The position numbers were made by a program, and so were the translations under genes. From assembly GCF_003334405.1 (NCBI RefSeq), contig NZ_QOWM01000005.1: a stretch of DNA of 64,000 nucleotides; one strand, 5' to 3'. The DNA comes from Escherichia coli. GTDB lineage: Bacteria > Pseudomonadota > Gammaproteobacteria > Enterobacterales > Enterobacteriaceae. Shown here in pieces: positions 10,423 through 35,138 of this stretch. The first letter of the stretch is position 1. The number at the start of each line of letters is the position of its first letter. Below the pieces are notes generated by a model. The model saw only the letters and a list, made by a program, of their open reading frames with translations, did no database searches and had not been told where the DNA came from.

Positions 10423-10444
10423 TGATTGAGATAATGAATAGATG

Positions 10445-32946: not shown

Positions 32947-33963
32947 ATGTCCACATTACGCCTGCTCATCTCTGACTCTTACGACCCGTGGTTTAACCTG
33001 GCGGTGGAAGAGTGTATTTTTCGCCAAATGCCCGCCACGCAGCGCGTTCTGTTTCTCTGGCGCAATGCCGACACGGTAGTGATTGGTCGCGCGCAGAACC
33101 CGTGGAAAGAGTGTAATACCCGGCGGATGGAAGAAGATAACGTCCGCCTGGCGCGGCGCAGTAGCGGTGGCGGCGCGGTGTTCCACGATCTCGGCAATAC
33201 CTGCTTTACCTTTATGGCTGGCAAGCCGGAGTACGATAAAACCATCTCTACGTCGATTGTGCTCAATGCGCTGAACGCGCTCGGCGTCAGCGCCGAAGCG
33301 TCCGGGCGTAACGATCTGGTGGTGAAAACAGTCGAAGGCGACCGCAAAGTCTCAGGCTCGGCCTATCGCGAAACCAAAGATCGTGGCTTCCACCACGGCA
33401 CTTTGCTGCTCAATGCCGACCTTAGCCGCCTGGCAAACTATCTCAATCCGGATAAAAAGAAACTGGCGGCGAAAGGCATTACCTCAGTGCGTTCCCGCGT
33501 GACCAACCTCACCGAGCTGCTGCCGGGGATCACCCATGAGCAGGTTTGCGAGGTCATAACCAAGGCCTTTTTCGCCCATTATGGCGAGCGTGTAGAAGCG
33601 GAAATCATCTCCCCGGACAAAACGCCAGACTTGCCAAACTTCGCCGAAACCTTTGCCCGTCAGAGTAGCTGGGAATGGAACTTCGGTCAGGCTCCGGCAT
33701 TCTCGCATCTGCTGGATGAACGCTTTAGCTGGGGCGGCGTGGAACTGCATTTCGACGTTGAAAAAGGCCATATCACCCGCGCCCAGGTGTTTACCGACAG
33801 CCTCAACCCCGCGCCGCTGGAAGCCCTCGCCGGGCGACTGCAAGGCTGCCTGTACCGCGCGGATATGCTGCAACAAGAGTGCGAAGCGCTGTTGGTTGAC
33901 TTCCCGGACCAGGAAAAAGAGCTACGGGAGTTGTCGACGTGGATAGCGGGGGCGGTAAGGTAA
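32947..33963 (+). CDS. lplA: Lipoate-protein ligase A, 338 aa
   Basis: Translation begins [57 protein letters not shown]... Confidence 0.96.
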
Positions 33964-33994
33964 CTCGCTGATTAAAATACCAAAGGAAGGGAAT

Positions 33995-34258
33995 ATGATC
34001 GATCTGGAAAACCAGGAGCGGGAGATTATCAATTTAATGTTAAGCCAGCGTATTTCCTGGCTAGCCGCCGTGCGTATCAGGCATAAATTATCGCTTGCTG
34101 AAGTAAGTAAAATGTTAGGTATCTCGATTAATTCTCTAAAACAGATCGAAAAGACGGAACGGCTTAGCTCAAACATCAAAAGCAAAATGGCAGAAATTTA
34201 TGGTTGTCCACCAGAGTTGCTGATATGCCCTTCCTGGATGACGGCTGAACATAAATGA
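33995..34258 (+). CDS. Hypothetical small DNA-binding protein with Cro/C1-type HTH motif, 87 aa
   Basis: ORF with a good Shine-Dalgarno (aaggaagg) 6 nt upstream of the ATG; residues LSLAEVSKMLGISINSLKQIE fit an XRE-type helix-turn-helix. No family assignment possible without a search. Confidence 0.5.
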   Translation: MIDLENQEREIINLMLSQRISWLAAVRIRHKLSLAEVSKMLGISINSLKQIEKTERLSSNIKSKMAEIYGCPPELLICPSWMTAEHK

Positions 34259-34355
34259 ATAGATTCGTGAATAGATACTTGAATGGATTTTATTTTCTAT
34301 CCATATGAAAAATAATAGTAAATCTATAAATCAGTTGCTATTGATGAATAGATAC
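34257..34355. repeat. Three direct copies of GAATAGAT(A/T)C (34257-34266, 34269-34278, 34346-34355) in an AT-rich segment
   Basis: Read directly; two copies abut the stop of the 87-aa ORF, the third sits just before the deoD terminator. Confidence 0.6.
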
Positions 34356-34386
34356 TAAAAAGCCGGAGCAGTCTCCTGCTCCGGCT
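34356..34386 (-). terminator. deoD rho-independent terminator (stem agccggagcag/ctgctccggct, U-run on minus strand)
   Basis: Perfect 11-bp stem with 4-nt loop about 30 bp downstream of the deoD stop, followed by TTTTT on the minus strand. Confidence 0.75.
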
Positions 34387-34418
34387 TAACACGACGTTCG
34401 CCTTTCAGCGAAACACAA

Positions 34419-35138
34419 TTACTCTTTATCGCCCAGCAGAACGGATTCCAGTGCGATTTTGATCATGTCGTTGAAGGTGGTCTGACGCTCAGCGGCAGTG
34501 GTCTGCTCGTGAGTGCGGATGTGGTCAGACACGGTGCAGATGGTCAGGGCTTTCGCGCCAAACTCTGCAGCGACGCCGTAGATACCAGCCGCTTCCATTT
34601 CCACGCCGAGGATGCCGTATTTTTCCATCACGTCGAACATTTCGCCGTCCGGAGAGTAGAACAGGTCAGCGGAGAACAGGTTACCCACGCGAGCATCAAC
34701 ACCCAGTGCTTTAGCCGCGTCTACCGCGTTACGCACCATGTCAAAGTCAGCGATAGCGGCAAAGTCATGGTCTTTAAAACGGATACGGTTAACTTTGGAA
34801 TCGGTGCAGGCACCCATACCGATAACGACGTCGCGCAGTTTTACGTGCGGCAGAACTGCGCCACAGGAACCCACGCGGATAATTTTCTTCACGCCGAAAT
34901 CGGTGATCAGTTCTTTGGTGTAGATGGAGCAGGACGGGATACCCATACCGTGACCCATTACGGAAATTTTGCGGCCTTTGTAAGTACCGGTGAAGCCCAG
35001 CATACCGCGAACGTTGTTCACTTCACGGGCATCTTCAAGGAAAGTTTCAGCAATATACTTCGCACGCAGCGGGTCGCCTGGCATCAAAACTACGTCAGCG
35101 AAATCGCCCATTTCTGCATTAATGTGTGGGGTAGCCAT
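34419..35138 (-). CDS. deoD: Purine nucleoside phosphorylase DeoD, 239 aa
   Basis: Translation begins [69 protein letters not shown]... Confidence 0.97.

What the first reader, a model, noticed from the sequence alone, without database searches (positions are those of the whole stretch)
33964..34418. Small HTH ORF and direct repeats in the lplA-deoD gap, where yjjJ is expected
The 455-bp gap between convergent lplA and deoD holds an 87-aa ORF with a Cro/C1-type HTH and a strong SD, followed by an AT-rich segment with three direct copies of GAATAGAT(A/T)C and then the intact deoD terminator. As I recall, K-12 has yjjJ here, a roughly 443-aa HipA-family kinase reported to carry its own N-terminal HTH. 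The ORF could be a truncated N-terminal remnant of a yjjJ-like gene after deletion of the kinase domain, or an independent orphan XRE-like regulator or antitoxin. The repeats may mark the junction or act as binding sites. I could not settle the strand of K-12 yjjJ from memory.
Basis: partly seen in the sequence, partly recalled or inferred. Interest (0 to 1): 0.5.

Follow-up and report, generated by a model that had tools for sequence, protein, structure and literature searches.

The report
Solo HTH gene replacing hipH toxin
In this E. coli strain, as in three quarters of sequenced E. coli, the toxin-kinase gene hipH (yjjJ) between lplA and deoD is replaced by a small, dispensable DNA-binding gene on the other strand, and the repeats beside it are the old hipH control sites left behind.

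Summary
An 87-aa ORF (33995-34258, +) with an XRE/Cro-C1 HTH and a Shine-Dalgarno site lies between lplA and deoD. It is followed by GAATAGAT repeats and the deoD terminator.

The "yjjJ remnant" reading is wrong. In K-12, yjjJ/hipH lies on the opposite strand, and nothing in 33964-34249 resembles it. This is the majority allele of a two-state locus: 4069 of 5426 complete E. coli genomes carry the HTH gene and 1348 carry hipH. The swap runs from the lplA stop to the hipH start codon.

The ORF is a real but weakly constrained gene (pN/pS 0.25). A 44%-identical, same-length orthologue sits at the same site in another genus. About 45% of carrier genomes have it inactivated. It is homologous (hhalign 99.4%) to the C-terminal DNA-binding half of RelE/ParE-linked XRE antitoxins, but has no toxin neighbour.

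The repeats are not a junction scar. They are four ATCTATTCA boxes, one distal and three tandem at a 12-bp period ending at the hipH ATG. The same boxes stand upstream of hipH in E. coli, Salmonella, Citrobacter, Erwinia and 35%-identical homologues, and overlap a published Reg-Seq repressor site. Here they are orphaned. Which protein binds them, and what the HTH protein regulates, remain inferred.

The parts
32947..33963 (+). lplA (lipoate-protein ligase), left flank. Its stop codon is the left boundary of the allele-specific segment.
   Evidence: ORF list; PGAP annotation of identical loci; junction alignment.
33964..33994 (+). 31-nt spacer between lplA and the HTH ORF. It holds the Shine-Dalgarno-like AAGGAAGGG (33983-33991). 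No terminator is present, so co-transcription with lplA is inferred.
   Evidence: Sequence. The terminator scan finds none on the + strand. The only promoter-like hit overlaps the start codon.
33995..34258 (+). 87-aa solo XRE-family HTH gene, intact in this window. RefSeq calls it 'helix-turn-helix domain-containing protein', WP_000566155.
   Evidence: Pfam HTH_3 E 1.2e-6. AlphaFold2 pLDDT 89.6 with the XRE five-helix core at residues 22-76. Foldseek top hits are CylR2, C.BclI, SinR and P22 c2. pN/pS 0.25. hhalign 99.4% to RelE/ParE-linked antitoxins.
33964..34249 (.). Allele-specific segment (286 bp) that stands where the 1332-bp hipH coding sequence lies in K-12-like and B2-like genomes.
   Evidence: Alignments of both junctions; no similarity to yjjJ.
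34250..34252 (-). CAT, the complement of the hipH ATG. Homology with the hipH allele starts here. On the - strand it now opens only a 27-codon ORF antisense to the HTH gene.
   Evidence: Alignment; translation.
34256..34264 (-). Box 3 (TGAATAGAT on +, ATCTATTCA in hipH sense), nearest the former hipH ATG. Its TGA is the stop codon of the HTH ORF.
34268..34276 (-). Box 2 (perfect ATCTATTCA), 12 bp from box 3.
   Evidence: The unit is lost by 12-bp slippage in some strains.
34280..34288 (-). Box 1, degenerate (ATCCATTCA), the same variant as in Salmonella.
34289..34344 (-). Spacer between the proximal and distal boxes. In hipH alleles it holds the hipH promoter. Here it is strongly diverged from K-12 but well conserved among HTH-allele genomes.
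34345..34353 (-). Distal box (perfect ATCTATTCA), directly after the deoD terminator.
34360..34387 (-). deoD intrinsic terminator hairpin (12 pairs, loop of 4, T run).
   Evidence: I6.
34419..35138 (-). deoD (purine nucleoside phosphorylase), right flank.

Best explanation
The gap holds the common, non-K-12 allele of the hipH (yjjJ) locus. hipH between deoD and lplA is the ancestral arrangement in Enterobacteriaceae. In most Escherichia its coding sequence, from start codon to stop codon, has been replaced by a 286-bp segment. That segment encodes, on the opposite strand, an 87-aa stand-alone XRE-family HTH protein. The protein corresponds to the C-terminal DNA-binding half of XRE antitoxins that sit downstream of RelE/ParE toxin genes on plasmids and phages. 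It lacks their N-terminal ~50 residues and has no toxin neighbour, so it is a solo antitoxin-type DNA binder.

Inferred steps: it is translated from the lplA transcript (31-nt gap, good SD, no terminator) and acts, if at all, as a small repressor-type DNA-binding protein. It is dispensable, because a large share of carrier genomes have it inactivated.

The GAATAGAT repeats belong to hipH, not to this gene. They are four ATCTATTCA boxes, one distal and three tandem at a 12-bp period running up to the hipH ATG, and they form the conserved control region of hipH. The most likely role of the boxes is as operator of a repressor, most plausibly the invariant winged-helix N-domain of HipH itself (inferred). 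In this strain they are orphaned next to a promoter region that now points into the 3' end of the HTH gene.
For: Allele structure:
- Megablast finds the whole 581-bp region in 4069 of 5426 complete E. coli genomes and yjjJ in 1348. The two sets are mutually exclusive and nearly exhaustive.
- The junctions lie right after the lplA stop and at the hipH ATG.

Ancestry:
- The order deoD, then hipH, then convergent lplA is found in Salmonella, Citrobacter and a third genus.
- deoD-hipH adjacency is also found in Erwinia.

The ORF is a real gene:
- HTH_3 match and a confident XRE fold.
- pN/pS 0.25, against 0.05 for lplA.
- An 87-aa orthologue at 44% identity lies between lplA and deoD of another genus, whose lplA is 80% identical in DNA.
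- It is also present in E. marmotae and other Escherichia lineages.

Antitoxin relationship:
- Relatives of 31-45% identity are 102-133-aa proteins. In L009 and in three of the four plasmid or phage contexts examined they lie directly downstream of RelE/ParE toxin genes.
- hhalign gives 99.4%, E 1e-21, with columns 9-77 matching 53-121 of 123.

Dispensability:
- The Q50* haplotype is an exact match in 1690 genomes.
- A frameshift haplotype is present in at least 141 genomes.
- An IS1 is annotated within the matched 581-bp region in one genome; its exact position was not checked.

Boxes:
- They are identical in the K-12 allele.
- The same layout occurs upstream of hipH in Salmonella, Citrobacter, the L018 taxon, Erwinia and 35%-identical HipH homologues.
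- The HipH N-terminal HTH is nearly invariant.
- The Reg-Seq repressor site at +30..+45 maps onto boxes 2-3 (PMC7567609 supplement).
Against: - No experiment shows that the 87-aa protein is made or binds DNA. Its target is unknown.
- No curated NCBIfam family is reached.
- ChIP-exo of tagged YjjJ in K-12 found no DNA binding (PMC8464067), so HipH as the box-binding protein is unproven. Reg-Seq assigned MarA to the neighbouring site.
- The boxes and the whole 101-bp intergenic stretch are better conserved in hipH-less genomes than the ORF. At most one mismatch is seen in 3418 of 4036 genomes, whereas the ORF is at least 99% identical in 2189 of 3905. Nucleotide diversity is 0.017 against a synonymous diversity of 0.08-0.15. 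A pure 'leftover' reading does not predict this.
- The spacer between the boxes is strongly diverged between the two alleles while the box block next to the junction is identical. A single replacement event does not explain this mosaic.
- The consensus scan calls no sigma-70 promoter in any of these intergenic regions.
Confidence: 0.72

Rival explanations
1. The 87-aa ORF is the N-terminal HTH remnant of a yjjJ/hipH gene that lost its kinase domain by deletion.
For: Same locus, and HipH does carry an N-terminal HTH (PMC8262856). Such a remnant does exist in one strain: WB61 keeps only about the first 190 nt of hipH.
Against: The ORF is on the opposite strand to hipH. No BLASTP, blastn-short or tblastx similarity is found. 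hhalign probability is 8.8%. The HipH HTH is a winged helix, whereas the ORF is a five-helix XRE fold.
Confidence: 0.01
2. The 87-aa XRE protein is the present-day binder of the ATCTATTCA boxes. It has taken over control of the orphaned hipH promoter, which now fires antisense into its own gene, or it acts as resident 'immunity' that would silence an incoming hipH. This would explain why the boxes stay conserved without HipH.
For: The boxes and the intergenic region are more conserved than neutral sites in hipH-less genomes. The spacer of this allele has gained inverted, degenerate box copies that form palindromes with box 1 and with the distal box (I10; sequence), as a dimeric XRE protein would need. 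The ORF stop codon lies inside box 3.
Against: The orthologue in the other genus (L004) has no boxes downstream. About 45% of carrier genomes have the gene inactivated, yet they keep the boxes; L016, a nonsense allele, has four perfect boxes. The boxes are direct repeats, which is untypical for XRE dimers. The two palindromes have different spacings.
Confidence: 0.1
3. A host factor other than HipH, present in all these bacteria, binds the boxes. MarA/SoxS/Rob or an unidentified response-regulator-like protein are candidates. In that case the boxes are a regulatory element independent of which gene occupies the slot.
For: The boxes are retained in hipH-less Escherichia lineages. ChIP-exo found no YjjJ binding. 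Reg-Seq assigned MarA to the adjacent site. c-di-GMP-dependent control acts at the hipH promoter (PMC11452175).
Against: The boxes track hipH down to 35% identity in unrelated contexts. The HipH recognition helix is nearly invariant. The boxes are absent in L004. No other tandem boxes occur in the window, and there is one place per genome. The sequence has no marbox core by eye.
Confidence: 0.2
4. The ORF is not a functional gene at all. It would be a decaying relic of an old insertion, kept open in this strain by chance.
For: Inactivation is frequent. pN/pS is five times that of lplA. The family is confined to Escherichia plus one singleton.
Against: pN/pS of 0.25 is well below 1. Length and 32 residues are conserved with a 44%-identical orthologue in another genus. 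The ORF is intact in E. marmotae, O157:H7 and about 2200 genomes. It has a strong SD and a confident fold.
Confidence: 0.12

Closest known systems
XRE-family antitoxins of toxin-first RelE/ParE-XRE type II toxin-antitoxin modules (for example Leclercia plasmid pZ96-1_2 WP_225988006, Serratia plasmid WP_129941838, phage PPyecE_EH1910 BCI50128)
   Same: Clear homology over residues 9-77 to their C-terminal HTH half (hhalign 99.4%, E 1e-21). The shared motifs are SxLAAxR, LS..EVA..LGI, QxEK and AEIYxC.
   Different: It lacks their N-terminal ~50 residues and has no RelE/ParE gene next to it. It has an extra C-terminal tail, CPSWMTAEHK. It is chromosomal, at a fixed site, and probably co-transcribed with a housekeeping gene.
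HipH (YjjJ), the HipA-family Ser/Thr kinase toxin with an N-terminal HTH (Gerdes et al. 2021, PMC8262856; Gratani et al. 2022, PMC9948734)
   Same: It occupies exactly the same chromosomal slot, and the upstream control region with its four boxes is shared.
   Different: There is no sequence or fold relationship to the ORF, which lies on the opposite strand and has no kinase domain.
HipB, the XRE-type antitoxin and repressor of hipBA
   Same: It is a small (88 aa) XRE-fold DNA binder associated with Hip kinases. HipB is reported to rescue YjjJ toxicity (PMC9948734).
   Different: No HipB-specific similarity is found. The NCBIfam HipB model gives no hit at E of 1 or less, and HipB is not among the top 50 Foldseek hits. 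No hipA-type gene is adjacent. From my own knowledge, HipB operators are TATCC-N8-GGATA palindromes, not ATCTATTCA direct repeats.
Operator arrays of autoregulated type II toxin-antitoxin promoters, such as the four hipBA operators
   Same: There are several copies of a short motif covering the promoter-proximal region and the 5' leader of a toxin gene. Mutations in them raise expression in Reg-Seq.
   Different: These are direct repeats at a 12-bp period plus one distal copy. The binding protein is unidentified. In this window the array stands without its toxin gene.

Membership tests
XRE / Cro-C1 HTH (Pfam HTH_3, PF01381) | Significant match to the HTH_3 profile over the whole domain | tested here: met
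   HTH_3 i-E 1.2e-6, 28.8 bits, model positions 1-55 of 55, residues 23-76. HTH_19 and HTH_31 also match.
XRE / Cro-C1 HTH (Pfam HTH_3, PF01381) | Five-helix bundle fold with the helix-turn-helix at helices 2-3 | tested here: met
   AlphaFold2 pLDDT 89.6, helices 22-29, 34-41, 45-54, 59-69 and 73-76. Foldseek to CylR2, SinR, P22 c2 and 434 Cro at rmsd 1.5-2.0 A over 53-60 residues.
XRE / Cro-C1 HTH (Pfam HTH_3, PF01381) | Sequence-specific DNA binding, usually as a dimer on a palindromic operator | not testable with these tools
   No binding data exist and no clear palindromic operator lies upstream of the ORF.
Type II antitoxin of a RelE/ParE-XRE module | Homology to the antitoxin family | tested here: met
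   hhalign 99.4%, E 1e-21, against an alignment of eight such proteins.
Type II antitoxin of a RelE/ParE-XRE module | Adjacent cognate toxin gene in the same operon | tested here: not met
   The neighbours are lplA and deoD, with only 31 nt upstream. L009 and three of the four plasmid or phage relatives examined have a RelE/ParE gene directly upstream.
Type II antitoxin of a RelE/ParE-XRE module | Toxin-neutralising region (the N-terminal ~50 residues of the relatives) | tested here: not met
   The alignment shows the 87-aa protein and P0079 starting at about column 55. The N-terminal segment is absent.
HipH/YjjJ (N-terminal remnant) | Same strand and reading frame as hipH, and similarity to the YjjJ N-domain | tested here: not met
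   Opposite strand. BLASTP gives nothing, tblastx gives nothing and hhalign gives 8.8%.
HipB antitoxin | Match to the HipB equivalog model and adjacency to a hipA-family kinase | tested here: not met
   NF007271 is not among the hits at E of 1 or less. No kinase gene is present in this allele.
hipH upstream operator boxes (for the repeats) | Positional homology with the region upstream of hipH in K-12 | tested here: met
   Alignment A1 shows the boxes and inter-box spacers identical apart from one base in box 1 (34285, G here, A in K-12); the base just outside box 3 (34253) also differs.
hipH upstream operator boxes (for the repeats) | Conservation of motif, number, period and position across hipH-bearing genera while the surrounding sequence diverges | tested here: met
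   Salmonella, Citrobacter and L018, Erwinia and 35%-identical homologues.
hipH upstream operator boxes (for the repeats) | Binding by a repressor (HipH N-domain or another protein) | not testable with these tools
   The Reg-Seq repressor-type site at +30..+45 overlaps boxes 2-3. YjjJ ChIP-exo was negative.

The most novel reading that the evidence does not exclude
hipH and the solo XRE gene are two old alternative cassettes kept at one site across Escherichia, in a roughly 25:75 split within E. coli. Both would work through the same conserved ATCTATTCA operator array. HipH would autoregulate through its winged helix. The 87-aa XRE protein would bind the retained array in hipH-less cells, controlling the orphan promoter that reads antisense into its own gene, or acting as resident immunity against an incoming hipH. 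That would be a case of two unrelated DNA-binding folds converging on one operator. It would also be a toxin/anti-toxin polymorphism at a single locus.
Probability: 0.08. Interest if true: 0.7.

Novelty: new member of a known kind. Interest (0 to 1): 0.35.

Why it matters
- HipH/YjjJ is studied as an E. coli toxin kinase and persistence factor in K-12 and uropathogenic strains. These data show that three quarters of sequenced E. coli, including O157:H7, have no hipH at all and carry a different small gene in its place. This limits how far K-12 results can be generalised.
- The analysis also points to a likely hipH operator: four ATCTATTCA boxes conserved from Erwinia to E. coli. I found no description of it in the searchable literature. 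It gives a direct test of the proposed, but so far unsupported, DNA-binding role of the HipH N-terminal HTH.
- The 87-aa gene itself is an ordinary, uncharacterised, partly decaying XRE-family gene.

Tried and rejected
1. The genome-contig scan with the 87-aa alignment was lost to a queue error and then counted as used. No systematic species survey was therefore possible. I used exact-protein contig look-ups instead.
2. A viral-contig scan for tandem boxes gave 89 stretches in about 57 contexts. Two composition-matched shuffled patterns gave 29 and 36, and the neighbouring genes share no family. I treat these hits as mostly background, apart from the four HipH-homologue loci.
3. Rfam gave only a sub-threshold CyaR hit (21 bits against a gathering score of 47) that includes the deoD hairpin. 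I rejected it.
4. The sigma-70 scan calls no promoter in the intergenic region of this window, K-12, Salmonella or Erwinia. The promoter positions I mention, such as TTGACA-17-TTAAAT in Salmonella, are read by eye only.
5. Full-text searches for the motif and for locus tags or WP accessions found nothing relevant.
6. P0033 (71% identity) does not translate from its contigs and looks like C-to-T converted or error-laden reads. I ignored it.
7. P0079 is a singleton in the protein collection, so the organism behind L004 could not be named.
8. From memory I compared the boxes with the TorR, CreB, OxyR, ArgR, Cra, RcsB and MarA motifs. None fits, and none was tested.
Full report
**The observation**

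The window is E. coli. It is 100% identical over 33900-34480 to strains FDN-9 and CFSAN051542. lplA ends at 33963 on the + strand and deoD ends at 34419 on the - strand.

Between them lies an 87-codon ORF, 33995-34258 (+). AAGGAAGGG at 33983-33991 precedes it, ending three bases before the ATG. After the ORF comes an AT-rich stretch and then the deoD terminator hairpin, 34360-34387, on the - strand.

GAATAGAT(A/T)C occurs three times in the 64-kb window, all within 100 bp here. Only 0.16 are expected, and none of 100 shuffles reached three. A fourth, degenerate copy, TGAATGGAT at 34280, keeps the 12-bp register of the first two.

The ORF matches Pfam HTH_3 (E 1.2e-6) and related HTH families. 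It also matches a PHROG of transcriptional regulators (E 8e-11).

**What stands here in other genomes**

Megablast of the 581-bp region against 5426 complete E. coli genomes finds the whole region in 4069. In these, PGAP annotates the ORF as 'helix-turn-helix domain-containing protein'. In about 1300 others only the part from 34250 onward matches, at about 85% identity, and yjjJ is annotated there. A search with the K-12 yjjJ gene finds it in 1348 genomes, once per genome. The locus therefore has two mutually exclusive states that together cover 5417 of 5426 genomes.

In K-12-like and B2-like genomes, yjjJ/hipH (443 aa) lies on the deoD strand. Its stop codon directly abuts the lplA stop codon.

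Alignment of both junctions shows where the alleles differ. They part right after the lplA stop and meet again at the complement of the hipH start codon, CAT at window 34250-34252. The 1332-bp hipH coding sequence is thus replaced, almost to the base, by 286 bp that carry the ORF on the other strand.

**The ORF is not a hipH remnant**

Four tests agree:
- BLASTP of the 87-aa protein against YjjJ gives only chance matches.
- blastn-short and tblastx of 33964-34252 against hipH from K-12, a B2 strain, Salmonella, Citrobacter and a third genus give nothing better than E 0.36.
- Profile-profile comparison of the two families gives 8.8% probability, over a generic 26-column helix-turn-helix.
- The strand is wrong for a remnant.

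A true N-terminal remnant of hipH does exist in one strain, WB61, which keeps about 190 nt of the 5' end of hipH. That is a different, rare allele.

**Which state is older**

hipH lies in the order deoD, hipH, then convergent lplA in Salmonella enterica, Citrobacter freundii and a third enterobacterial genus. It also follows deoD in Erwinia tasmaniensis. YjjJ orthologues are found across Enterobacteriaceae and Erwiniaceae. hipH is therefore the ancestral occupant.

The HTH gene is also old. Intact copies occur in E. marmotae and other divergent Escherichia lineages. The only relative outside Escherichia is P0079. It is 87 aa, 44% identical, and a singleton among 5.8 billion proteins. It lies between lplA and deoD of a bacterium whose lplA is only 80% identical in DNA to that of E. 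coli, which is the same distance as Citrobacter or Salmonella.

**The ORF is a real but weakly constrained gene**

Among intact alleles, including E. marmotae, pN/pS is 0.25. The same genomes give 0.05 for lplA and 0.01 for deoD. Length and 32 residues are invariant between the E. coli protein and P0079.

AlphaFold2 gives a confident model (pLDDT 89.6). It has an N-terminal helix, the five-helix XRE core at residues 22-76, and a short C-terminal helix. The best structural matches are CylR2, C.BclI, SinR, DdrO, P22 c2 and 434 Cro.

The gene is also often broken:
- A CAG-to-TAG change at codon 50 is carried as an exact 47-mer by 1690 genomes. PGAP flags it as 'internal stop'.
- A one-base deletion haplotype is carried by at least 141 genomes.
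- One genome has an IS1 annotated within the matched 581-bp region. I did not check whether it lies inside the ORF.

Roughly 45% of carrier genomes therefore have the gene inactivated. The copy in this window is intact, as is that of O157:H7.

**What kind of protein it is**

No curated NCBIfam family reaches its cut-off.

The nearest relatives outside the family are 29-45% identical. They are 95-133-aa proteins whose C-terminal half aligns with residues 3-77 of the ORF. In a metagenomic contig, in Leclercia and Serratia plasmids and in phage PPyecE_EH1910, these proteins lie directly downstream of a RelE/ParE-family toxin gene. In the fourth context examined, a Xenorhabdus megaplasmid, no such toxin gene is annotated upstream.

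An alignment of eight such proteins matches the 87-aa family with 99.4% probability, E 1e-21, columns 9-77 against 53-121 of 123.

The ORF is therefore homologous to the DNA-binding half of toxin-first RelE/ParE-XRE antitoxins. It lacks their N-terminal ~50 residues and has no toxin gene next to it, so it fails two defining features of an antitoxin. I file it as a solo XRE-family HTH protein of antitoxin ancestry, not as an antitoxin. There is no specific likeness to HipB.

**The repeats**

In the hipH sense the motif is ATCTATTCA. K-12 has one copy next to the deoD terminator and three perfect tandem copies at a 12-bp period, ending three bases before the hipH ATG.

The same layout occurs upstream of hipH in other taxa, while the sequence between the boxes is unalignable between genera:
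- Salmonella, where the first proximal box is ATCCATTCA, as in this window.
- Citrobacter and the third genus, L018.
- Erwinia tasmaniensis, with four perfect boxes.
- HipH homologues of only 35% identity found on four IMG/VR contigs, which have tandem boxes 17 nt upstream of their start codon.

The N-terminal winged-helix region of HipH is nearly invariant across these genera, including ISQATFSRL and FGKARATRYAL.

Published Reg-Seq data place two repressor-type sites at the K-12 yjjJ promoter, at -24..+18 (assigned to MarA) and +30..+45 (unassigned), relative to coordinate 4621716 (PMC7567609 supplement). Mapped onto the sequence, +30..+45 covers box 2 and the start of box 3.

The repeats are therefore a conserved cis-regulatory array of hipH, not a scar of the replacement. 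That HipH itself binds them is an inference from this co-occurrence. Gerdes et al. only suggested that the HTH 'may function to bind DNA' (PMC8262856), and a ChIP-exo screen found no YjjJ binding (PMC8464067).

**What remains unexplained**

In hipH-less genomes the boxes have no cognate HipH, because no second hipH copy exists in those genomes at megablast level. Yet the 101-bp stretch 34259-34359 has at most one mismatch to this window in 3418 of 4036 genomes. The ORF is at least 99% identical in only 2189 of 3905. In a sample of eight genomes its nucleotide diversity is 0.017, against a synonymous diversity of 0.08-0.15 in the flanking genes and 0.06 in neighbouring non-coding DNA.

Within that stretch the boxes are not clearly better kept than the spacer. 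By my count from the alignments, there are five substitution events in 36 box positions against 16 in 65 others. One 12-bp unit has been lost twice.

Between the two alleles the pattern is different. The box block next to the junction is identical, but the spacer 34289-34344, which holds the hipH promoter in K-12, is strongly diverged. A single replacement followed by neutral decay does not predict this mosaic.

Three explanations remain open:
- A second event in the spacer.
- Binding of the boxes by a host factor.
- Use of the array by the 87-aa protein.

Two facts argue against the third. The orthologue in the other genus has no boxes downstream, and nonsense alleles keep perfect boxes.

**Expression**

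No terminator separates lplA from the ORF, and the only promoter-like match overlaps the start codon. Co-transcription with lplA is therefore inferred.

The former hipH promoter region now points into the 3' end of the ORF. On the - strand the old ATG opens only a 27-codon frame. Whether that promoter still fires is unknown. The consensus scan does not call a promoter here or in the hipH-bearing relatives.

**Controls and dead ends**

- Tandem boxes in viral contigs (89 stretches) are only two to three times more frequent than two shuffled controls (29 and 36). They share no neighbouring gene family. Apart from the four HipH-homologue loci, I regard them as background.
- Rfam gives nothing above threshold.
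- Literature searches for the motif and for the protein accessions found nothing.
- The survey of one genome per species could not be run.

**Verdict**

The finding is real but largely ordinary. It is the majority allele of a known polymorphic site, carrying an annotated, uncharacterised, partly decaying XRE-family gene.

Two points go beyond the annotation and are, as far as I could find, unpublished:
- hipH is absent from 75% of E. coli genomes, which carry a solo antitoxin-type HTH gene in exactly its place.
- hipH has a deeply conserved array of four ATCTATTCA boxes, which this strain retains without the toxin.

Interest is modest, at 0.35. The most novel reading not excluded is that two unrelated HTH proteins use one operator at a toxin/anti-toxin dimorphic locus. 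I put that at about 8%.

Noticed in passing
L032 (E. coli WB61, NZ_CP020025.1) 2001-2192: A rare third allele. hipH is cut down to about its first 190 nt, the N-terminal HTH part. It overlaps the 3' end of lplA and is annotated 'transcriptional regulator, incomplete'.
   Followed up: partly
L033 (E. coli XJ5.2, NZ_CP074354.1) 1069-2357: IS1A and IS200C are inserted between hipH and deoD, separating hipH from the distal part of its upstream region.
   Followed up: no
H1 (NZ_CP020835.1, strain CFSAN051542), region matching window 33900-34480: The match is split into two pieces by an IS1B element, in a strain otherwise 100% identical to the window here.
   Followed up: no
window 34142 (codon 50 of the ORF); L016 1443: A single C-to-T change (CAG to TAG) truncates the protein to 49 aa in 1690 of 5426 complete genomes. 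This is one old mutation carried by a very large clade. The window has the intact CAG.
   Followed up: yes
window 34268-34279; L010 and L024: One 12-bp box unit has been lost independently in an E. coli strain (B1.H1.1) and in the divergent P0021 lineage. The number of tandem boxes therefore varies between 2 and 3 by slippage.
   Followed up: partly
L018 1850-3000 (unnamed enterobacterial genus, ENA ERZ27277080): Between deoD and hipH there are four copies of a ~100-bp REP-like repeat and a 163-aa ORF. From memory the ORF looks like a REP-associated tyrosine transposase (RAYT). The hipH boxes remain intact downstream of it.
   Followed up: no
L076 1318-2682, also L079, L082, L086 (IMG/VR contigs): Full-length HipH homologues of 35% identity, with a related N-terminal winged helix (VSQPTISR, GNGRSIQYAL), are preceded by tandem ATCTATTCA boxes 17 nt upstream of the ATG. 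The motif-protein pairing therefore extends far beyond Enterobacterales.
   Followed up: partly
window 34289-34344: The spacer of this allele contains two inverted, degenerate copies of the box (TCTATCCAT near 34297 and ATCTATAAA at 34322). They form imperfect palindromes with box 1 and with the distal box. K-12 has only a weak counterpart.
   Followed up: partly
window 10435-10443: This is the only other exact TGAATAGAT in the 64-kb window. It is a single copy, as expected by chance.
   Followed up: no
L005, L006 (Logan contigs carrying P0033): A '71% identical' homologue whose differences are mostly changes to F, L, W and V, and which does not translate from its own contig. It is probably C-to-T converted or error-rich reads, not a real variant.
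   Followed up: no
plasmid-labelled records H55-H62: Eight 'plasmid' records of 0.4-4.9 Mb carry the lplA-HTH-deoD region. They look like chromosomes or chromosome fragments mislabelled as plasmids in PLSDB.
   Followed up: no
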